NCBI RefSeq assembly: GCF_009931435.1
Contig: NZ_CP043414.1
Length of the DNA: 64,000 nt
Direction: 5' to 3' (one strand)
Origin: Escherichia coli
GTDB taxonomy: Bacteria; Pseudomonadota; Gammaproteobacteria; Enterobacterales; Enterobacteriaceae
The first letter of the stretch is position 1, and the number at the start of each line of letters is the position of its first letter. Positions 13,258 to 22,613 of the stretch are shown here, one piece after another. Made by a program: the position numbers and the translations under genes. The notes under the pieces are model-generated. The model did not search any database, was not told where the DNA came from, and saw only the letters and a program-made list of their open reading frames with translations.

Positions 13258-13539
13258 ATGGCTACCCTCACCACTGGCGTGGTTCTTCTTCGCTGGCAAC
13301 TTCTTAGTGCCGTAATGATGTTTCTGGCCAGCACACTCAACATCCGTTTTCGCAAATCAGATTATATTGGTCTTGCGGTGATTAGCAGCGGCCTGGGCGT
13401 TGTTTCTGCCTGCTGGTTCGCTACCGGATTGCTCGGTATTACCATGATGGATATTACCGCTATCTGGCACAACATTGAGTCGGTGATGGTGGAAGCCATA
13501 AATCAGGCGCCACCTGAATGGCCAATGATTATGACCTGA
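13258..13539 (+). CDS. yjcB: Small inner-membrane protein YjcB, 93 aa
   Basis: MATLTTGVVLLRWQLLSAVMMFLASTLNIRF... preceded by gaggaa ribosome-binding site; track ORF begins 33 codons upstream. Confidence 0.7.
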   Translation: MATLTTGVVLLRWQLLSAVMMFLASTLNIRFRKSDYIGLAVISSGLGVVSACWFATGLLGITMMDITAIWHNIESVMVEAINQAPPEWPMIMT

Positions 13540-13548
13540 TGGCGGGAG

Positions 13549-13580
13549 TTTGTGCAGGATCCCCGGTGATTCTGCACAAA
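13549..13580. terminator. Inverted repeat between convergent yjcB and island porin gene
   Basis: tttgtgcag ... ctgcacaaa (9-bp arms, 14-nt loop); weak terminator candidate at the left island junction. Confidence 0.4.
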
Positions 13581-13594
13581 CAAATGATTAAGAC

Positions 13595-14956
13595 CTACAG
13601 TTTGATTGTAATCTGAGTTCCCACAACCCAGGCGTCGTCGATTTCACTCACCCCACCGGGATCAATCAGCAACTGCACATTGGGTCGCAATGTTAACCAC
13701 GGCGTCACCACAAAACTGTAATGCAATTCTGCCGCATACTCAGCGTCTCTTACTGGCGTCCAGGCGGGATTATCATAATCATCAAGACCCTTTTTATCAT
13801 TGAGCAATTGCGCCCGTCTGGCTACTTTACTGTTTTCGTGCATTTTGCTGACGCCAAAGCCAATGTAATCCTGCCCCCGACCGGAAAATGGCCCTTTATA
13901 AATAGCGCCAATTTGCGTCTGGTAATCCATTGTCGCAGTATCCCGATCATTCATCGCCAGATGCCAGAACAGAGAAAGGCCACCACGAGGAGAACGGGGA
14001 TCAGCAGTCACTTGCTGGAGTAAGTAGATCCAGCCACCGTAACGCCCATCGTGAGTCGCCGGGGGACGTTGGCTCGTAACGTAGTCATCGCCTTCTGCAT
14101 CCTTCAGGACGTCACTGGCTTTTGCTGTGTTATACCAGGCTCCTACTTTCCAGGCACCCGGAAGTTTATTCGCACCCAGCGTTGGTGTATACCCAAATTC
14201 CATAAGGTACATATTTCCTAATCTTCCAGTATTATCCAACTGGAAACTGCCGCTTCGCGTCGCATAATTTGGGTTATACATAAACGCGCCGGTCTGCAAA
14301 TAAACTTGCGGTGTAAAATTATAACGTAACCTGGCCCCCCACTGACCAATCGGTGTGTTATACCAGACTCCCGCACCATGACCTGCCAACGAACCACAGA
14401 GGGAAAGGTTCTGGAAATAACAACCATTGTTATCGAAGTCTTCGCCAACCGGCATTAATCCTAACTTTAAATCAATCGTTTTTGCATACCATGATTGACG
14501 ATACCAGAATTGCGCGGCATGCCAGGTTTGACCCCGGCCATAGTTACTGTTTACCGTCGAGCCAATCACTGGGGCTCGAGGATCCTGAATTCTGTCGCTG
14601 GTAAGATCGCGGCCGTTACGATCGATAACAGAGACTTTAAACTCTCCATCCGTGATACCCGCAATTTTTTGCAGATCAAAATCGGCACCGATAATATACT
14701 GGTCGCTATATCGCGCCGTCCGATCCTTGTTATAACCGCCTGAAATATTCGATGTCACCATCGAGCCATATTCCAGAGTAAAATCATATCCTTTGTTTTT
14801 TAACTCACTACGCACTCCATTCCAATCTCCAGCCATATATTTTCCGGTTGAGGAAAAAGGTAACTCATTGGCTAACGAACCAAATGGGAACATCAGTATC
14901 ATCAGGAAAATATAATTTTCCCGTATAGAATGATCCATATTATTTATCCTTTGCAA
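13595..14956 (-). CDS. Accessory island gene 1: outer-membrane porin-like protein (OprB/carbohydrate-selective or OprD-like; family uncertain), 453 aa or shorter
   Basis: Signal-peptide-like N-terminus (…FLMILMFPFGSLA|NELP…); mature part rich in Gly/Tyr/Asn/aromatic residues with alternating hydrophobicity typical of beta-barrel porins; N-terminal GDWNGVRSELKNKGYDF…NISGG resembles the OprB-family start as I recall it. True start may be the internal MDHS. Confidence 0.6.
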   Translation of the reverse strand: MQRINNMDHSIRENYIFLMILMFPFGSLANELPFSSTGKYMAGDWNGVRSELKNKGYDFTLEYGSMVTSNISGGYNKDRTARYSDQYIIGADFDLQKIAGITDGEFKVSVIDRNGRDLTSDRIQDPRAPVIGSTVNSNYGRGQTWHAAQFWYRQSWYAKTIDLKLGLMPVGEDFDNNGCYFQNLSLCGSLAGHGAGVWYNTPIGQWGARLRYNFTPQVYLQTGAFMYNPNYATRSGSFQLDNTGRLGNMYLMEFGYTPTLGANKLPGAWKVGAWYNTAKASDVLKDAEGDDYVTSQRPPATHDGRYGGWIYLLQQVTADPRSPRGGLSLFWHLAMNDRDTATMDYQTQIGAIYKGPFSGRGQDYIGFGVSKMHENSKVARRAQLLNDKKGLDDYDNPAWTPVRDAEYAAELHYSFVVTPWLTLRPNVQLLIDPGGVSEIDDAWVVGTQITIKL

Positions 14957-15060
14957 TCCGAATATAACATTCAGAGAAGCGCTACTGGCAAATATTTCTT
15001 AATGCTGGTGAAACACAGAAATTCTCTGGCAGGCCGATCCTTTCTTCCCGGTCAGTACGG

Positions 15061-16527
15061 CTACGGCGAAAGCTCTTCCAGTGATTTTCCCTTCGTTTCA
15101 ATAGCGAACAAATAGGTAACCAGGCCGCCTATTAACGCGATGACTGCGAACACAATAAAAACAAAGCGGATCCCAAAACCAGAAACAATGAATCCCACCA
15201 GCAACGGTCCAACGGAAGAGCCAGCCCGCAACCAGGCACTGGAAAATGCCGTTCCAATCGCTCTCAGGCGAGTGGGGTATAGCTCTGCAGAGTAGAGATA
15301 AAGAGAGAAGGCAATGGTCTGGAGAATGGCATACGTCATACTACCGAAAATAAGGATTTCAATGGCAGATTTGGCTCCGAAAATACAAAGAGTCACTAAC
15401 GGGATAATGGCCAGTAAATAAGCCCAGGTATACCAGCATTTTCTTCCAATACGATCGATAAGCAGTGCACAAATTACCGACGCAAAAACTCCACAGGAGG
15501 AAGTAATCCAACCATAAGCCAGACTGGTTTCCAGTGGTAAGTGAAAAAGCGTTTTATACATGGTAGGAAACCAGGTGATCATACCATTGTTCACCGTATA
15601 AACGGTCAGCCATAGTCCCCATAACATAAACGTGCGTGATTTATAGATGCCGGAAAATAGTTCTTTTACGCCACCTGCAGGTTCCTTTTGCACAACTGCA
15701 GGATTAATCACCGGCTCAGGTAATTCCATTCCTCGCTGCAGCGCTTCTTTCTCAAACGCCGCAACGACTTTCTCAGCCTGAACATGGCGACCTTTCGCTG
15801 TTAACCAGCGTGGAGACTCAGGCATTAACCAGCGTAACGGAACCGTCAATGCCGAAGGGATAAGACCTATCAAAAACATCACTTTCCAGCCGTAAAGCGG
15901 AACAAGAAAATAGCCTACAAGACCAGCAAACATCATACCGATCGGAAAAATCACCTCGTAGAGTAAAAAAAAGCGGCCACGTTTTTTTGCTCCGATAAAT
16001 TCATTGATATAAGCGCTGGCAACCGGAACTTCTGCCCCTATTCCTAATCCTTGCAGGAAACGGATAACCAGAATCGACCATCCATTCCAGGCAAACAGGC
16101 AAGCGGCATCCATCGCGACGAACATCACAATGGTGATACGCAACACGCCAATGCGGCCAATTTTTTCTGCCAGAGAGCCAAAAAAGAGTGCGCCGCAGAG
16201 CTGCCCAACATAGCTTGCGGCAATGATCAGCCCGATGAAGGTTGGTGTTAATCCCCATTCCTGAGTGAGTTGCGGTAGCGCAAAAGCTATCGCGATAATG
16301 GTGTAAGCATCAAAGAATGTCGATAAACCCACCACTACACGAATAGCTAAAAGACGCCTGGTGACAGGGAGTCGTTCGAGCCTGGCAAGCAGCGTTGCGG
16401 GATCGCCTTCCCGCGGACTGGCAATAATACTTTCAGAAGTAATAACCTGAGTTGACATAGCGATATCCTGTTGATTGATTCGCAAGACAACGAACTGCGC
16501 CAAACCCAGCGGCTGGCAGCTATTCAC
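15061..16527 (-). CDS. Accessory island gene 2: MFS transporter (sugar-porter / aromatic-acid:H+ symporter-like), about 465-488 aa
   Basis: 12-TM profile; MFS signature motifs (…GRIGVLRITI…, …LMPESPRWL…). Track start is GTG at 16527; MSTQVITSES at about 16458 is an alternative start. Confidence 0.8.
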   Translation of the reverse strand: MNSCQPLGLAQFVVLRINQQDIAMSTQVITSESIIASPREGDPATLLARLERLPVTRRLLAIRVVVGLSTFFDAYTIIAIAFALPQLTQEWGLTPTFIGLIIAASYVGQLCGALFFGSLAEKIGRIGVLRITIVMFVAMDAACLFAWNGWSILVIRFLQGLGIGAEVPVASAYINEFIGAKKRGRFFLLYEVIFPIGMMFAGLVGYFLVPLYGWKVMFLIGLIPSALTVPLRWLMPESPRWLTAKGRHVQAEKVVAAFEKEALQRGMELPEPVINPAVVQKEPAGGVKELFSGIYKSRTFMLWGLWLTVYTVNNGMITWFPTMYKTLFHLPLETSLAYGWITSSCGVFASVICALLIDRIGRKCWYTWAYLLAIIPLVTLCIFGAKSAIEILIFGSMTYAILQTIAFSLYLYSAELYPTRLRAIGTAFSSAWLRAGSSVGPLLVGFIVSGFGIRFVFIVFAVIALIGGLVTYLFAIETKGKSLEELSP

Positions 16528-16565
16528 TTGCAGTTATTTGAGAATCTATCTGCATAAAAACCATA

Positions 16566-16593
16566 ATGAAAACGTTTCTGCAATCGTTTTCAT
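16566..16593. promoter_or_regulatory. Operator-like inverted repeat atgaaaacg-N10-cgttttcat in the divergent MFS / regulator promoter region
   Basis: Perfect 9-bp arms with 10-bp spacer; embedded tgcaatcgttttca fits the LacI/cre-type pattern TGnAAnCGnTTnCA; followed by tataat at 16595-16600. Second copy at 18068-18093. Confidence 0.45.
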
Positions 16594-16885
16594 GTATAAT
16601 TATCGTCATTAGTTTCCCGGGGGATGTCAATTCGACTCAGCGAATATTTGTTAATCAGTTCACATTCCGGATATCTGCTTAGAGAAAAAATGTGATGTTG
16701 TTCTTAAAGCCATCAAGAAAGCTCGCGACAAAGATCGGATACGTACACGCTCAGGACGTAGTAAACATCCAACATTTCTTTGTACATACAAAAAATTGCC
16801 GTACCATTTTACAAGGCCAATCATTACGCACTGGCCTTTTGAATGACGGGACCTTTCAGGTAATTAATACATACGGGAGTCAGCT

Positions 16886-17914
16886 ATGAGCCTGGAAAGC
16901 GAAGAAAAAGACCAAACAGAAAAAAAGCTGATCACCATGCGTGACGTGGCGAATGCTGCCGGGGTGAGTATTTCTACCGTTTCGCGTATCCTGGATGAAA
17001 GATTACCGCCATCTAAAAGCGCTTCTGCCGAAAAAGTACGCCAGGTCGCACGCGAATTGGGCTATCGTCGGGATTATGTTGCCTCCAGTCTCCGTCGCGG
17101 CGGCACCGGGACACTTGGTGTATTAGTTCCACGCCTGACTGATGCAGTTACTGCAATGTTGTTTGAAGAAATCGCTAAAGCAGCGTCGCATCGTGGTTAC
17201 TTCGCAGTGGTCGCGACTTGTGGAGACGATCCCCAGCAAGAGCGAGAATCTGTAGAATCACTTCTCGACAGGCGGGTCGACGGCTTGATTATGTCAACCT
17301 GTCGCCTCGGCGATCCCCTACCGCAAACTTTGCGTGAAAGGGATATTCCCCATGTGCTCGCCCTGCGTACTGATGGTGTTAGCCCATCATCCATCGGCGA
17401 TGATGAACTGGGTGGTTACCTTGCTACTCGCCATCTTATTGATTTAGGACATAAAAACATCGGTTTGATAGGTGGCCCGGATTTTGCCTCAAATGCGCTT
17501 AATCGCCGTAAAGGTTTTGAAAAGGCAATGCGCGAAGCCGGACTAACTATACAGCCGCAATGGTGCTGTTCATCAGACTTTAACATCCAGTCGGGAGAAG
17601 AAGCAGGGATGAAACTCCTCAGAACGACTCCTGCTCCAACCGCTATTTTTGCGGTAAATGACGAAATAGCGATTGGTGTGGTTGCTGCCGCTCACCATTT
17701 GGGGATAACAATCGGCCAAGAGTTGTCGTTAGTGGGTTATAACGACATTCCTCTGGTCAGCCGACTTCCTGTGGCGCTCACTTCCGTAAGAACGCCGCTA
17801 GAGCATATCGCCAGTAATGCTGTGGACATGTTGATTAATGCCGACAGTGGCCGCTCTTTGCGTACAACCATACCGACTTTAATACCAAGAAAATCAACGA
17901 GTTCACCCAAGTAA
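16886..17914 (+). CDS. Accessory island gene 3: LacI-family transcriptional regulator, about 325-342 aa
   Basis: N-terminal HTH (…ITMRDVANAAGVSISTVSRILDE…) followed by a periplasmic-binding-protein-like sugar-binding domain; alternative start at MRDVA (about 16937). Confidence 0.85.
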   Translation: MSLESEEKDQTEKKLITMRDVANAAGVSISTVSRILDERLPPSKSASAEKVRQVARELGYRRDYVASSLRRGGTGTLGVLVPRLTDAVTAMLFEEIAKAASHRGYFAVVATCGDDPQQERESVESLLDRRVDGLIMSTCRLGDPLPQTLRERDIPHVLALRTDGVSPSSIGDDELGGYLATRHLIDLGHKNIGLIGGPDFASNALNRRKGFEKAMREAGLTIQPQWCCSSDFNIQSGEEAGMKLLRTTPAPTAIFAVNDEIAIGVVAAAHHLGITIGQELSLVGYNDIPLVSRLPVALTSVRTPLEHIASNAVDMLINADSGRSLRTTIPTLIPRKSTSSPK

Positions 17915-17923
17915 AGCCTGTCT

Positions 17924-17962
17924 TTCATTTGCTGCAAAACCCGGGGTTTTGCAGCAAATGAA
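17924..17962. other. 39-bp near-perfect palindrome just downstream of the regulator gene
   Basis: ttcatttgctgcaaaaccc-g-gggttttgcagcaaatgaa (19-bp arms); no U-tract follows, so either an unusual terminator or a protein-binding site. Confidence 0.4.
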
Positions 17963-18067
17963 GAACATTAAAATTCTTATATTCCTTCCCTGATTTTGTG
18001 ATCCCTGCTGCATTTTTCAACAACTGTTGATTGACAACCTCATTCATCAGGTTCAAATTCAATCTTG

Positions 18068-18093
18068 TGAAAACGATTGCAAGAACGTTTTCA
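18068..18093. promoter_or_regulatory. Operator-like inverted repeat tgaaaacg-N10-cgttttca upstream of the DapA-like/FAH/Dcu genes
   Basis: Perfect 8-bp arms, 10-bp spacer, about 60-80 bp upstream of the ATG at 18151; first arm plus spacer (tgaaaacgattgca) matches TGnAAnCGnTTnCA exactly. Same architecture as 16566-16593. Confidence 0.45.
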
Positions 18094-18150
18094 TTTCGTT
18101 TCTTGCATTGTCCACATAATAAAAAAGACTAAATTATTAAGGAGATAGTC

Positions 18151-19080
18151 ATGATCAATATAGATCTCAGAGGTTTGACCCCGGCACCGGTTACCCCTTT
18201 CAATCGTGATGGTAGTATTGATTTTGATGCTATCCAGCGTCTGGGAAGCTGGCTGGGTAGTATTGACGGCGTTAAAGGGTTAGTTGTACTTGGTCATGCT
18301 GGTGAAGGTACTTTCCTGACACAAGATGAACAGGCCGCTGTGATCCGTGCTTTCGTAAAATCCGTAGATGGCAAGCTGCCTATCATTGCCGGTATCACCG
18401 GTGAAGGGACTGACGTCGCTGCTAAAGAAGCCAAACGTGCCGTGGAAGCTGGTGCTTCAGCAGGCCTGTTATATCCTTCTCATGGATGGTTGCGTTTCGG
18501 CTACCAGGACGGCGCACCACAAGATCGCTACCGCGTTGTCTATGAAGAAAGCGGCCTGCCCTTGATCCTGTTTCAGTATCCTGATGTGACTAAAGCAACC
18601 TATAATCTGCAAACACTGCTGGATATTTCCGCACAACCCGGTGTTTTTGCTATGAAAAATGGTGTACGCAATATGCGTCGTTGGGATACAGAGATCCCGG
18701 TTATCCGCCGCGAGCGTCCGGAATTACAGATCCTCAGTTGCCATGATGAATATCTGGTACACACTGCTTTTGACGTAGATGGTTTCCTTGTCGGCTATGG
18801 CAATATTGCGCCAGAACCGCTCATCGAGATGATCAAAGCAGGTAAAGCTGGCGATTATAAAAAAGCACGCGCGATACATGACCGTCTGCTGCCAGTAACG
18901 AAGTGCGTATATCATCGCGGTTCCCATATGGAAGGAACCGTCGCCCTGAAACACGCGCTGGTTGCTCGCGGTATTCTCGAACATGCTACTGTTCGTTCAC
19001 CGCTATTACCGCTGGAGCATGGTGCCGAAGAAGAAATTCATGCTGCTATGCGTGCAGCTGACCTGCCGCGCGTTAAATAA
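18151..19080 (+). CDS. Accessory island gene 4: DapA/NAL-family class I aldolase or dehydratase (dihydrodipicolinate synthase-like), 309 aa
   Basis: Family-typical layout: …TPAPVTPFNRDGSIDFDAIQRLGSWL…GLVVLGHAGEGTFLTQDEQ…, Tyr in …LFQYPDVT…, candidate Schiff-base Lys in …VFAMKNGV…. Good ribosome-binding site (aaggag) upstream. Confidence 0.8.
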   Translation: MINIDLRGLTPAPVTPFNRDGSIDFDAIQRLGSWLGSIDGVKGLVVLGHAGEGTFLTQDEQAAVIRAFVKSVDGKLPIIAGITGEGTDVAAKEAKRAVEAGASAGLLYPSHGWLRFGYQDGAPQDRYRVVYEESGLPLILFQYPDVTKATYNLQTLLDISAQPGVFAMKNGVRNMRRWDTEIPVIRRERPELQILSCHDEYLVHTAFDVDGFLVGYGNIAPEPLIEMIKAGKAGDYKKARAIHDRLLPVTKCVYHRGSHMEGTVALKHALVARGILEHATVRSPLLPLEHGAEEEIHAAMRAADLPRVK

Positions 19081-19351
19081 CTCCGGCAACAGAAAAGAAA
19101 GCAGTATTCTAAATCACTACTCCTGATGGTTATTGCTTTCTTTCACTTAATGCCACATTAACGACGACAGCCACCTTTACATACAATCATAAGGTGGCTC
19201 ATTCTCTTCATCAGCCTATTGTCGCGCCGGGCTATTTTGAATAACTCAGATGTAATAATGATGAGATTGTTAGAATCCAGGCCATAGTACAACGTCTCAG
19301 AAGCCAGAAGGTAAGTAATGCCCTGATCATGGCATGAATTGAAGGAACATC

Positions 19352-20233
19352 ATGAAACTGCTCAGTTTTTCTGTAGATAACGAAGAAAAGTATGGTGCCA
19401 TCGTATCCGATGGAATTATTGACTTGCATAAATTATTTCCCGAACTTCCCGACCTGAAATCATACGTTGCCAGTCAACATTCATTAGACATCGCTTTGTT
19501 TGCAGGTAAAAAAGCCGATTACCATCAGGGCGAAGTGACTTTTCTGCCCGTAATTACTCGACCAAATAAAATCATCTGCGCAGGTATGAACTACCGGGAA
19601 AAATGTGCAGAATTTAATGAAAAAGGTGGCGATCCGACGCTATTTATCCGTTTTGCTGATACTCAGACGGGCCACCGTTGTGGGTTAATAAAACCGACCC
19701 TGAGTAATGAATTTGATTATGAAGGCGAACTGGCGGTAATTATAGGTCGCCAGGGTTCTCACATTCCTGCTGATGAAGCATTTAACTATATTGCCGGGTA
19801 TAGCTGTTATATGGATGGTTCCGTTCGTGACTGGCAGCACAGCTGGTTTACTGCCGGTAAAAATTGGCCTGCAACAGGTGGATTCGGGCCATGGATGGTT
19901 ACGCCAGATGAAATTCCTGACCCTCAAAATCTGAATATTATCACCCGTCTTAACGGCAAGGAAGTGCAGAATGATAATACACATAGCATGCTGCACTCTA
20001 TTAAGGATTTGATTGCCTATATCAGTACTTTCACCACCTTATCGCCCGGTGACGTGATATTAACAGGCTCTCCGGGTGGGGTCGGTAAAAAACGCTCTCC
20101 ACCGCTCTTCTTGTGGCCTGGTGATATTGTTGAAGTTGAGATTTCAAGAATTGGTTGCCTGATAAATCACATTATAAGCGACAACGAAGAGTATCCGGTC
20201 ACTTTACAATCAGAACTCGATAACGCCTGCTGA
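19352..20233 (+). CDS. Accessory island gene 5: fumarylacetoacetate hydrolase (FAH) family protein (hydratase/decarboxylase/hydrolase type), 293 aa
   Basis: FAH-fold core …FDYEGELAVIIGRQGSHIPADEAFNYIAGYSCYMDGSVRDWQ… and …GDVILTGSPGGVG…. Confidence 0.8.
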   Translation: MKLLSFSVDNEEKYGAIVSDGIIDLHKLFPELPDLKSYVASQHSLDIALFAGKKADYHQGEVTFLPVITRPNKIICAGMNYREKCAEFNEKGGDPTLFIRFADTQTGHRCGLIKPTLSNEFDYEGELAVIIGRQGSHIPADEAFNYIAGYSCYMDGSVRDWQHSWFTAGKNWPATGGFGPWMVTPDEIPDPQNLNIITRLNGKEVQNDNTHSMLHSIKDLIAYISTFTTLSPGDVILTGSPGGVGKKRSPPLFLWPGDIVEVEISRIGCLINHIISDNEEYPVTLQSELDNAC

Positions 20234-20320
20234 TTATAAAGTTAACGAAAAATTCGGATAGATAGCCTGGCACTTTAGAAATTAACATTAAGTGGTAGGC
20301 AATCCTTTCAAGGAGTATGC

Positions 20321-21610
20321 GTGATGATCATGCTGCAATTTATTATCGTTTTATTTTTCCTGTTTTTAGGAATGCGTATTGGCGGCATTGGTGTCGGATT
20401 TGCTGGTGGGGCAGGTGTCATCGCCTTGTGCGCCCTTGGTGCAACACCCGGCGATTTACCGATGCTGGTGATCGTTTTTATTATGGTTGTCATCATTGCA
20501 ATTGCTGCAATGCAAGAAGCGGGTGGGATTGACTATCTGGTTGGTTTAACCGAAAAAATGCTTCGCCGCTACCCTCGCCTGCTGGTAATAACTGCACCTC
20601 TGTCTACATGGCTATTAACCATGATGGCCAGTACCGGTCAGGTGTCATTTGCCTGTATGCCGGTTATTGTGGGTGTCGCGAAGGAAAATCAACTTCGTCC
20701 CACCCGGGCGTTGGCGCTTTCGGTTACCGCTTCATTGTTAGGTATTGTTGCCTCGCCTATCTCTGCCGCCGTTATTTTCTTTTCAGGCATCCTGGAAAAA
20801 AATCACCAGGGATGGGGATATTTGCAACTCATTGCCGTTTCTATACCGGCTACTTTATTAGCGTTGATTTGTACTTCGCTTTTTTACCTGTTCTGGGACA
20901 AACTTCGCCAGAATGATCAATTACCCGTACATATGGCTGTAACGAAAAAATCTCTGTCTGCGCCTGTGGTACAGGGAGCTCGTCGCTCAGTACTAATATT
21001 TATTTTTGGCCTAGTTGTAGTACTTTTTTACGCCCTCATTGCCAGTCCGAAAACAGGCGTTATCATACATCCCGTTTTAAATAGTGGACAGGTCCGTATT
21101 TCAGTAATGATGGCTGTAGCACTCGCCATTGTTATGTTTTGCCGGGTAAATGTGAATAACATTCCTGCGACATCAGTTTTTAAAACAGGGATGACGTCAT
21201 GCATCTGTATTTTAGGTGTCGCCTGGCTCGGTTCTACATTCATGGATAGTAACCAGGTGTGGTTTCAAAGCATGATTTCCGGATATTTATTAGATTCACC
21301 ATTGTTGCTGGCAATTATTATTATGCTGGCGTCATGTTTTCTATATTCTCAGGCGGCCTCCACCAAAATACTTTTTCCTATTGCATTAAGTATGGGTATC
21401 GCCCCTGCCACTCTGGTCGCCTGCTTTCCAGCAACGGCTTCTCTTTTTATTTTACCTAACTACCCCACATTATTAGCCGCCGTGACTCTTGATGATACGG
21501 GGTCAACGAAATTAGGAAATCGAATAATCGATCATCCGTTTATTGTTCCTGGTTTAATGGCAACCGTGTTATCGATACTCTTCGCCGCGGGATTCGCATT
21601 GTTTATTTAA
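20321..21610 (+). CDS. Accessory island gene 6: Dcu-family (DcuA/DcuB-like) C4-dicarboxylate transporter, about 429 aa
   Basis: Close resemblance along the whole length to E. coli DcuA as recalled (…LGMRIGGIGVGFAGGAGV…, …AMQEAGGIDYLV…, …TKLGNRIIDHPFIVPG…); about 10-12 TM segments. Confidence 0.85.
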   Translation: MMIMLQFIIVLFFLFLGMRIGGIGVGFAGGAGVIALCALGATPGDLPMLVIVFIMVVIIAIAAMQEAGGIDYLVGLTEKMLRRYPRLLVITAPLSTWLLTMMASTGQVSFACMPVIVGVAKENQLRPTRALALSVTASLLGIVASPISAAVIFFSGILEKNHQGWGYLQLIAVSIPATLLALICTSLFYLFWDKLRQNDQLPVHMAVTKKSLSAPVVQGARRSVLIFIFGLVVVLFYALIASPKTGVIIHPVLNSGQVRISVMMAVALAIVMFCRVNVNNIPATSVFKTGMTSCICILGVAWLGSTFMDSNQVWFQSMISGYLLDSPLLLAIIIMLASCFLYSQAASTKILFPIALSMGIAPATLVACFPATASLFILPNYPTLLAAVTLDDTGSTKLGNRIIDHPFIVPGLMATVLSILFAAGFALFI

Positions 21611-21698
21611 AATGTATATGGCAGGAGTCAATATCATCAGACTCATAGTTCACATAAAACAAACTGCAGCATCATCAACATCACTCAGGTATTAAAAA

Positions 21699-21720
21699 TC
21701 CCCAACCAGCCTGTTGGGGA
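21699..21720. terminator. Hairpin between island and ssb (likely ssb terminator, bidirectional)
   Basis: tccccaac-cagcct-gttgggga; A-run upstream (a T-run on the ssb strand) and T-rich sequence downstream. Confidence 0.55.
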
Positions 21721-21822
21721 TAAATATGTATTTTTCAATGTCCCGAGTAGCTACCGGGCAGATATCAATCTGAGGCTGTGGCTAACGCACACTGGCGGTA
21801 ACCACCTGAACCAAAAGAAATC

Positions 21823-22359
21823 TTAGAACGGAATGTCGTCATCAAAATCCATCGGCGGCTCATTAGACGGTGCTGCCGGAGCAGACTGCTGCGGGCGAGA
21901 CTGCGCGCCGCCGCTGAACTGATTGCCGCCCTGCGGCTGCTGAGGCTGACCCCAACCGCCCTGCGGCTGACCACCACCGATATTGCCACCTGCAGGAGCG
22001 CCACCACCCTGACGACCACCCAGCATCTGCATGGTGCCGCCAACGTTTACCACAACTTCAGTGGTGTAGCGATCTTGACCGGATTGATCGGTCCATTTGC
22101 GGGTACGCAGCTGACCTTCGATATAAACCTGAGAACCTTTACGCAGATATTCGCTGGCCACTTCTGCCAGTTTGCCGAACAGCACAACGCGGTGCCATTC
22201 AGTCTGCTCTTTCATCTCGCCGGTCGCTTTATCACGCCAGGATTCGGAAGTAGCCAGCGTAATGTTGGCAACTGCGCCACCATTTGGCATGTAGCGTACT
22301 TCCGGGTCCTGACCCAGATTACCAACGAGAATAACCTTGTTTACGCCTCTGCTGGCCAT
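21823..22359 (-). CDS. ssb: Single-stranded DNA-binding protein, 178 aa
   Basis: [44 protein letters not shown]…, Gly/Gln-rich tail ending DFDDDIPF. Confidence 0.97.
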
Positions 22360-22512
22360 GTTCGTGTCTCCTGAAAAAAAATCGTTCTGAATAAGTGTAA
22401 ACGCGCGATTGTACCATTACCAATAGCGCTTTTACTATGTTGTGACCTCGGTTCAGGGAAACAAACCTGGCCAGACATTGTTACACAACACTCCGGGTAA
22501 TGCATTCCAATA

Positions 22513-22528
22513 CTGTATATTCATTCAG
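22513..22528. promoter_or_regulatory. LexA box shared by divergent ssb / uvrA promoters
   Basis: ctgtatattcattcag (CTGT-N8-CAG) within tactgtatattcattcaggtca, about 90 bp upstream of uvrA. Confidence 0.8.
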
Positions 22529-22613
22529 GTCAATTTGTGTCATAATTAACCGTTTGTGATCGCCGGTAGCACCATGCCACCGGGCAAAAAAGCGTTTAAT
22601 CCGGGAAAGGTGA

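What the first reader, a model, noticed from the sequence alone, without database searches (positions are those of the whole stretch)
13595..14956. Island porin-like protein has a non-aromatic C-terminus
The predicted outer-membrane protein ends …VGTQITIKL, whereas most enterobacterial beta-barrel proteins end in an aromatic residue (compare lamB …EIWW in this window), which is part of the recognised targeting signal for barrel assembly. This may indicate a foreign origin, a mis-called stop or frame at the 3' end, or an atypical assembly signal.
Basis: partly seen in the sequence, partly recalled or inferred. Interest (0 to 1): 0.25.

Follow-up and report, generated by a model that had tools for sequence, protein, structure and literature searches.

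The report
OprB sugar porin ending in leucine
The gene is an intact, correctly called OprB-family sugar channel on a rare E. coli island, and its leucine ending is a common, repeatedly evolved alternative to phenylalanine in this family, so it is ordinary.

Summary

The interpretation mostly fails:
- **Not a mis-called stop or sequencing error.** Four independent E. coli assemblies give the same 447-aa ORF. Homologues at 40-76% identity stop at the same aligned position. Pfam OprB covers the protein to its penultimate residue. P. putida OprB (4GEY) aligns to within 4 residues of both C-termini. An AlphaFold model has 16 strands, the last being residues 434-446.
- **Terminal Leu is normal for this family.** Among 124 near-full-length 50%-identity cluster representatives, 83 end in F and 33 in L. 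On a tree of 237 homologues the terminal residue changed at least 31 times. Klebsiella aerogenes orthologues all end ...IKL.
- **I-K-L fits the published beta-signal consensus**, which accepts an aromatic or hydrophobic residue at both positions.
- **Foreign origin is supported.** The gene lies in an 8.3-kb, low-GC island between yjcB and ssb, found in 12 of 5426 complete E. coli genomes.

Outer-membrane localisation of a Leu-ending member was not found in the literature. Interest is low.

The parts
13595..14938 (-). CDS of an OprB-family carbohydrate porin (447 aa plus TAG stop at 13595-13597).
   Evidence: ORF. RefSeq CDS WP_000350093.1. Pfam PF04966, E=1.2e-91. P. putida OprB 4GEY, E=6e-125. 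AlphaFold model with 16 strands; Foldseek against 4gey gives TM 0.87/0.92.
13598..13639 (-). Last beta-strand and C-terminus (residues 434-447, DDAWVVGTQITIKL). The final three residues I-K-L form a hydrophobic-x-hydrophobic beta-signal.
   Evidence: DSSP strand 434-446 with pLDDT about 84. All 237 homologues align flush in the last alignment column. Matches the C-terminal regular expression printed in PMC3582582.
14870..14938 (-). Predicted Sec signal peptide MDHSIRENYIFLMILMFPFGSLA, with cleavage before NELPF.
   Evidence: Read from the sequence. Homologues have equivalent hydrophobic leaders ending in A/S-x-A before a conserved (P)FS motif. The 4GEY alignment begins at residue 33 of the 453-aa numbering. 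No signal-peptide predictor was run.
13548..13581 (.). Stable hairpin between the convergent porin and yjcB genes, inside the island edge. It may be a 3'-end or terminator element.
   Evidence: RNA fold -20.1 kcal/mol, z = -2.7 against shuffles. There is no U tract, and the terminator scan did not call it.
15061..16458 (-). MFS transporter gene immediately upstream on the same strand (122-nt gap). It is probably co-transcribed with the porin.
   Evidence: Pfam Sugar_tr/MFS_1. RefSeq WP_000107353.1. The MFS-OprB pair is conserved in L002 and L004.
16886..17914 (+). Divergently transcribed LacI-family regulator, the probable repressor of the cluster.
   Evidence: Pfam LacI plus Peripla_BP_3. The same position is conserved in L002 and L004.
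18151..21610 (+). Three further island genes: a DHDPS-family enzyme (18151-19080), an FAH-family hydrolase (19352-20233) and a Dcu-type C4-dicarboxylate transporter (20324-21610).
   Evidence: No equivalog-level assignment was reached, so the substrate is unknown.
13541..21817 (.). The whole accessory island, inserted between the stop codons of yjcB and ssb.
   Evidence: Similarity to the other roughly 5400 E. coli genomes ends at 13540 and resumes at 21818. The porin is present in 12 of 5426 genomes. GC is about 0.44-0.49.

Best explanation
**What it is.** The gene encodes a complete, functional-looking OprB-family substrate-specific outer-membrane channel: a 16-stranded barrel made with a Sec signal peptide. 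It belongs to a horizontally acquired sugar or sugar-acid utilisation island and is probably co-transcribed with an MFS inner-membrane transporter under a LacI-type repressor.

**The C-terminus.** The terminal Leu is a near-neutral, lineage-level substitution for the terminal Phe seen in other OprB proteins. Phe to Leu is one nucleotide step (TTT to CTT), and the codon here is CTG.

**How assembly would work (inferred).** The last strand keeps the family pattern: Gly at -7 and alternating lipid-facing aliphatic residues (V, T, I, I, L). It ends I-K-L, which fits the [aromatic/hydrophobic]-x-[aromatic/hydrophobic] core of the beta-signal. BamA/BamD should therefore recognise it as they do Phe-ending relatives.

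**Shown:** ORF integrity, family membership, completeness of the last strand, and the frequency and repeated origin of terminal Leu.

**Inferred:** outer-membrane localisation, BAM-dependent assembly, co-transcription and substrate class.
For: **Family and completeness**
- Pfam OprB scores 308 bits and covers profile positions 2-371 of 372, up to residue 452 of 453.
- PDB 4GEY matches at E=6e-125, with four unaligned residues left at the C-terminus of both sequences.
- The AlphaFold model (pLDDT 77.7) has 16 strands, the last at 434-446. Foldseek against 4gey gives TM 0.87/0.92.

**Not an error**
- Four further E. coli assemblies carry 447-aa ORFs with 0-2 amino-acid differences, all ending IKL*.
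- K. aerogenes has ...ATC AAG CTT TAA, and an F-ending relative has ...CGG TTT TAA, at the same aligned position.

**Leu is common and labile in this family**
- Homologue termini are F 72 and L 44 of 120.
- The enterobacterial clade mixes L, F and M among close relatives: Enterobacillus ...IKF against K. aerogenes ...IKL.
- Among 50%-cluster representatives of at least 400 aa: F 83, L 33, I 2, V 1, M 1, and no W or Y.
- NJ tree plus Fitch parsimony gives at least 31 state changes in 237 sequences.
- Leu-enders occur in Pseudomonas, Acinetobacter, Alcanivorax, Sphingomonas, Parvibaculum and Planctomycetes.

**Literature**
- The beta-signal consensus is zeta-x-G-x-x-[aromatic/hydrophobic]-x-[aromatic/hydrophobic] (PMC10945584).
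- The C-terminal pattern in the proteobacterial survey allows [YFWHILM] at the last position (PMC3582582). The query matches it.
- In PagP, F161L changes folding free energy by only about 0.3 kcal/mol, and aliphatic residues are as stabilising as Phe (PMC5519381).
- Lys or Arg at the penultimate position occurs in 25-40% of Escherichia OMP C-terminal peptides (PMC3582582).
Against: - No experiment shows that this protein, or any Leu-ending OprB homologue, is in an outer membrane. I found none in the searchable literature. Only Phe-ending P. putida OprB has a solved structure.
- Classical work cited in PMC3582582 reports that deleting or substituting the terminal Phe of PhoE impairs assembly at high expression. 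A kinetic cost of Leu in E. coli is therefore not excluded.
- The PagP data concern unassisted folding, not BAM-assisted assembly.
- The stricter consensus in a 2026 review (G-x-x-aromatic-x-aromatic; PMC13067283) is not met. Neither the -2 nor the terminal residue is aromatic, and Gly lies at -7 rather than -5.
- The gene is too similar among E. coli strains (0-3 nt differences) to measure selection within the species.
Confidence: 0.78

Rival explanations
1. The stop codon or reading frame at the 3' end is wrong (sequencing or assembly error), and the true protein continues to an aromatic residue.
For: Only the general expectation that OMPs end in F or W (PMC3582582).
Against: - The 3' end is identical in independent assemblies from four countries.
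- Homologues down to about 30% identity end at the same aligned column.
- The stop is directly adjacent in two diverged loci.
- The three downstream frames give *VLIICLCRITG..., RS*SFV... and GLNHLFVQNHRG..., none of which looks like a strand extension.
Confidence: 0.01
2. The terminal Leu is a weakened beta-signal with a functional consequence. It slows BAM engagement or lowers assembly efficiency, so the porin depends more on BamD and internal signals and stays at low copy number. This could be an adaptive tuning or a tolerated cost.
For: - Substituting or deleting the terminal Phe of PhoE impairs biogenesis at high expression but is tolerated at low expression (as summarised in PMC3582582).
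- No aromatic residue lies in the last 9 residues.
- An internal-signal-like pattern lies five strands upstream: Y339-x5-A345-x-Y347, in strand 337-348 (motif from PMC10945584).
Against: - At least 31 F/L switches, including between close relatives and across phyla, argue for near-neutrality rather than a specialised role.
- Leu is about as stabilising as Phe in PagP.
- No compensating change appears at -2 in the non-redundant set (Fisher p=0.62).
- The internal motif match has low specificity.
Confidence: 0.17
3. The gene is a decaying or non-functional foreign remnant whose defective targeting signal is not under selection.
For: The island is rare (12 of 5426 genomes). There are no expression data.
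Against: - The ORF is intact in every genome examined.
- All family-invariant residues are kept, including the Cys173/Cys181 pair.
- The Leu-ending orthologue is retained across many K. aerogenes variants and together with the same neighbouring genes.
Confidence: 0.04

Closest known systems
Pseudomonas putida OprB (PDB 4GEY/4GF4), the glucose-inducible carbohydrate-selective porin; Pfam PF04966
   Same: - About 45% identity over the whole mature protein.
- The same predicted 16-stranded barrel (PMC4849052).
- Same length at the C-terminus.
- Gly at -7 and alternating aliphatic residues in the last strand.
- A conserved Cys pair and many invariant Arg, Asp and Glu residues.
   Different: - It ends in Leu, whereas the Pseudomonas homologues end ...F.
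- The last-strand sequence is WVVGTQITIKL, against ...LVAGLKIQS(S/K)F in Pseudomonas.
- It is encoded with an MFS transporter and a LacI regulator, not with a glucose ABC transporter. The latter context is from my own knowledge of Pseudomonas and was not tested here.
- The substrate is unknown.
Klebsiella aerogenes 'carbohydrate porin' (P0029 cluster, 446 aa)
   Same: - 65-66% identity.
- Terminus ...QVTIKL with the stop directly after Leu.
- The same neighbours: MFS, LacI, DHDPS-family enzyme and Dcu transporter.
   Different: - The Leu codon is CTT rather than CTG.
- The cluster lacks the FAH-family gene.
- It lies next to GH88 and sulfatase genes and a P2-like replication gene.
Canonical E. 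coli porin beta-signals (OmpC, OmpF, LamB, PhoE), which end aromatic-x-aromatic
   Same: The C-terminal strand ends flush with the protein. The -2 and terminal positions are hydrophobic and the penultimate residue is polar or charged, which fits zeta-x-G-x-x-[aromatic/hydrophobic]-x-[aromatic/hydrophobic] at those two positions.
   Different: There is no aromatic residue at either the -2 or the terminal position. Gly is at -7 rather than -5. LamB in the same window ends EIWW.

Membership tests
OprB carbohydrate-selective porin family (Pfam PF04966) | Significant full-length match to the family profile, above the curated threshold. | tested here: met
   308.3 bits against a cut-off of 22.9. Profile positions 2-371 of 372 match residues 79-452 of the 453-aa translation.
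OprB carbohydrate-selective porin family (Pfam PF04966) | 16-stranded beta-barrel fold like the solved P. putida OprB. | tested here: met
   The AlphaFold model has 16 strands. The best PDB match is 4gey, with E=5.5e-69, TM 0.87/0.92 and rmsd 2.8 over 422 columns. This is a prediction, not a solved structure.
OprB carbohydrate-selective porin family (Pfam PF04966) | Complete C-terminal strand ending at the family's usual position. | tested here: met
   All 237 near-full-length homologues place their terminal residue in the same last alignment column. Four unaligned residues remain at the end of both the query and 4GEY.
OprB carbohydrate-selective porin family (Pfam PF04966) | N-terminal signal peptide for export. 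| tested here: inconclusive
   By inspection only: MDHSIRENYIFLMILMFPFGSLA|NELPF, with equivalent leaders in homologues. No dedicated predictor was available.
OprB carbohydrate-selective porin family (Pfam PF04966) | Outer-membrane location and carbohydrate-selective channel activity. | not testable with these tools
   This needs fractionation and bilayer or liposome-swelling assays. No literature on an enterobacterial member was found.
Canonical bacterial beta-signal, strict form (G-x-x-aromatic-x-aromatic; PMC13067283) | Aromatic residue at the C-terminus and at -2, with Gly at -5. | tested here: not met
   The terminus is G-T-Q-I-T-I-K-L: Leu at 0, Ile at -2, Gln at -5, Gly at -7. Gly at -7 is family-wide, at 91-98%.
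Bacterial beta-signal, broad form (zeta-x-G-x-x-[aromatic/hydrophobic]-x-[aromatic/hydrophobic]; PMC10945584) and the C-terminal pattern of PMC3582582 | Hydrophobic or aromatic residue at -2 and at the terminus; last position within [YFWHILM]. | tested here: met
   I-K-L satisfies the core. The regular expression printed in PMC3582582 matches VVGTQITIKL.

The most novel reading that the evidence does not exclude
OprB-family porins could be a natural experiment on the beta-signal. Phe and Leu (never Trp or Tyr in the sample) have swapped at the terminal position dozens of times, sometimes between paralogues or near-identical orthologues. Leu-enders such as this one carry no aromatic residue in the last nine positions. 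If Leu-enders were assembled with measurably different BAM, BamD or SurA dependence, this rare E. coli island porin would be a native E. coli substrate for testing whether aromaticity or mere hydrophobicity is read at the C-terminus.
Probability: 0.15. Interest if true: 0.3.

Novelty: already known. Interest (0 to 1): 0.08.

Why it matters
It matters little. The result closes three worries: frame error, truncated barrel, and defective targeting signal. It also shows that the 'aromatic C-terminus' rule of thumb should not be used to flag OprB-family genes, because about a quarter of family lineages end in Leu.

The only wider value is as a pointer. An uncharacterised 8.3-kb accessory island carries a porin, an MFS transporter, a LacI regulator, DHDPS-family and FAH-family enzymes and a Dcu transporter. 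It is present in 12 of 5426 E. coli genomes and shared with Klebsiella aerogenes, and its substrate is unknown.

Tried and rejected
1. **Compensation at -2.** In the redundant set, Leu-enders had a hydrophobic -2 residue in 96% of cases against 73% for Phe-enders. In the 50%-cluster representatives the difference vanishes: 31/33 against 80/83, Fisher p=0.62. The apparent effect came from the Pseudomonas OprB-I clade, which has Ser at -2.
2. **Penultimate Lys as a 'Neisseria-like', E. coli-incompatible feature.** Rejected, because 25-40% of Escherichia OMP C-terminal peptides have Lys or Arg there (PMC3582582).
3. **Experimental evidence for a Leu-ending OprB homologue.** Literature searches found nothing usable. 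The P. putida three-paralogue study gives no C-terminal sequences (PMC13332142). The P. monteilii Leu-ender (P0123) does not sit in a recognisable oprB-II or oprB-III context.
4. **Papers not available.** The van den Berg 2012 JBC structure paper is not held. The original BOMP paper was not found.
5. **NCBIfam.** No model matches the porin.
6. **Naming the island's substrate.** NCBIfam and PDB sequence searches of the DHDPS-family and FAH-family enzymes gave only family-level matches below the equivalog cut-offs.
7. **Terminator scan.** It did not call a terminator after the porin. A hairpin is present but has no U tract.

Full report
**Observation.** The minus-strand ORF at 13595..14956 exists and ends ...DDAWVVGTQITIKL, followed by TAG. 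RefSeq annotates the same gene in identical DNA of strain Z1323HEC0423 as a 447-aa 'carbohydrate porin' (WP_000350093.1) starting at the ATG that corresponds to window 14938. Homologues are 446-447 aa. The comparator is correct: lamB lies at 46419..47789 (-) and ends EIWW.

**What the protein is.** Pfam assigns it to the OprB family (PF04966, E=1.2e-91). The match runs over profile positions 2-371 of 372 and reaches the penultimate residue. The only solved relatives are P. putida OprB, 4GEY and 4GF4 (E=6e-125). That alignment stops four residues before the end of both sequences, so the two proteins have C-termini of the same length.

An AlphaFold model built on a 40-sequence alignment (mean pLDDT 77.7, pTM 0.76) has 16 beta-strands. 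The last covers residues 434-446 at pLDDT about 84. Foldseek returns 4gey as the top hit, with TM 0.87/0.92. OprB is described as a 16-stranded carbohydrate-specific channel (PMC4849052). The N-terminus, MDHSIRENYIFLMILMFPFGSLA|NELPF, looks like a Sec signal peptide, as do the leaders of the homologues. This was judged by inspection only.

**Is the 3' end an error?** No.
- Four other complete E. coli genomes from Korea, Mexico, Finland and the USA carry a 447-aa ORF with 0-2 amino-acid differences. None has an internal stop and all end IKL*.
- In K. aerogenes the gene ends ...ATC AAG CTT TAA. In a 74%-identical relative from an unnamed enterobacterial contig it ends ...CGG TTT TAA. The stop therefore follows the aligned terminal codon in diverged DNA.
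- None of the three frames downstream of the window's stop gives a plausible extension.
- A stable hairpin follows the stop at 13548-13581 (-20 kcal/mol, z = -2.7).

**How unusual is a terminal Leu?** It is not unusual in this family.
- Among the 120 closest database clusters, 72 end in F and 44 in L.
- Within the enterobacterial clade (58-76% identity to the query), L, F and one M are interleaved. Enterobacillus tribolii ends ...QVTIKF and another relative ...QVTVKF. They sit beside K. aerogenes ...QVTIKL, and the query's own subclade has eleven L, one M and two F.
- In an exhaustive search of 50%-identity cluster representatives, the 124 near-full-length hits among the best 150 end in F (83), L (33), I (2), V (1) and M (1). 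A few ragged ends look truncated, and none ends in W or Y.
- In a MAFFT alignment of 237 homologues every terminal residue falls in the last column. On an NJ tree, Fitch parsimony needs at least 31 changes of that residue.
- Leu-ending members come from Pseudomonas monteilii, Acinetobacter bereziniae, Alcanivorax, Sphingomonas, Parvibaculum and Planctomycetes. The state is therefore not tied to one host's BAM machinery.

[quoted passage not shown] A recent review writes the motif as G-x-x-aromatic-x-aromatic (PMC13067283), and the query fails that strict form. It has Ile at -2, Leu at 0 and Gly at -7, and the Gly at -7 is a family-wide feature at 91-98%.

The experimentally derived consensus is zeta-x-G-x-x-[aromatic/hydrophobic]-x-[aromatic/hydrophobic] (PMC10945584). 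The C-terminal pattern used for 437 proteobacterial genomes allows [YFWHILM] at the last position (PMC3582582), and VVGTQITIKL matches it. For PagP, F161L costs about 0.3 kcal/mol, and aliphatic residues are as stabilising as Phe at this interface position (PMC5519381). That result is for unassisted folding. The penultimate Lys is unremarkable, since 25-40% of Escherichia OMP C-terminal peptides have Lys or Arg there.

**Mechanism.** The best-supported reading is a normal OprB-type channel. It would be exported by Sec and inserted by BAM through an aliphatic-x-aliphatic beta-signal. It would serve as the outer-membrane entry for the substrate of the adjacent MFS transporter.

Shown here:
- the ORF is intact;
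- the protein belongs to the OprB family;
- the last strand is complete;
- terminal Leu is frequent and has arisen many times.

Inferred:
- localisation and BAM dependence;
- co-transcription with the MFS gene (122-nt gap, same strand; the pair is conserved in L002 and L004);
- repression by the divergent LacI-family gene.

A weaker rival is that Leu lowers assembly efficiency and shifts reliance to internal signals. The strand five before the last, MDYQTQIGAIYK, fits the internal-signal pattern, but that pattern has low specificity. I give this rival about 0.17.

**Foreign origin.** Similarity to essentially all other E. coli genomes stops at window 13540 (the yjcB stop) and resumes at 21818 (the ssb stop). 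The 8.3 kb between them has GC about 0.44-0.49. The ssb/uvrA side is at 0.52-0.56, while the pdeC-yjcB side is itself low at 0.41-0.49. The porin is found in 12 of 5426 complete genomes.

The island carries the porin, an MFS transporter, a LacI regulator, a DHDPS-family enzyme, an FAH-family hydrolase and a Dcu-type transporter. The same core cluster occurs in K. aerogenes and in an unnamed enterobacterial contig. No enzyme reached an equivalog-level assignment, so the substrate is unknown.

**Verdict.** 'Foreign origin' is supported, 'mis-called stop' is refuted, and 'atypical signal' is true only against classical E. coli porins, not against the protein's own family or the broad published consensus. 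The one gap is experimental: I found no Leu-ending OprB homologue with demonstrated outer-membrane localisation. Novelty: already known, since the gene is correctly annotated as an OprB-family porin. Interest is low.

Noticed in passing
window 13541-21817: An 8.3-kb accessory island lies between yjcB and ssb. It carries an OprB porin, an MFS transporter, a LacI regulator, a DHDPS-family enzyme, an FAH-family hydrolase and a Dcu C4-dicarboxylate transporter. The substrate is unknown. The porin is present in only 12 of 5426 complete E. coli genomes.
   Followed up: partly
L002 1-21341 (K. aerogenes metagenome scaffold) and L004: The homologous cluster is conserved in K. aerogenes. There it lacks the FAH-family gene and lies beside GH88, an 827-aa unannotated protein, a second MFS/LacI pair, a sulfatase and a P2-like Phage_GPA replication gene. 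This hints at a link to unsaturated uronate or glycosaminoglycan-type substrates. In L004 an extra MFS gene sits between the DHDPS-family and FAH-family genes.
   Followed up: no
window 20300-22700: Only 6 genomes cover at least 80% of this stretch although 12 carry the porin. The right-hand (Dcu) end of the island seems to vary among carriers.
   Followed up: no
window 13548-13581: A 13-bp hairpin lies between the convergent porin and yjcB genes, just inside the island boundary (-20.1 kcal/mol, z = -2.7). It has no U tract on either strand.
   Followed up: partly
window 13400-13540 (3' end of yjcB): The last 141 nt of yjcB matched only one island-free E. coli genome by megablast, at 82% identity. 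The whole pdeC-yjcB stretch is 94-97% identical elsewhere. The 3' end of yjcB next to the island is therefore unusually diverged. The mechanical ORF (TTG 13159, 126 aa) is also longer than the RefSeq YjcB CDS (282 nt).
   Followed up: no
OprB family homologues (P0121-P0270): Across the sampled OprB family the terminal residue is essentially only F or L, never W or Y. Gly sits at -7 rather than the textbook -5, and position -2 is aliphatic rather than aromatic. The family's beta-signal therefore departs from the aromatic-x-aromatic form as a whole.
   Followed up: partly
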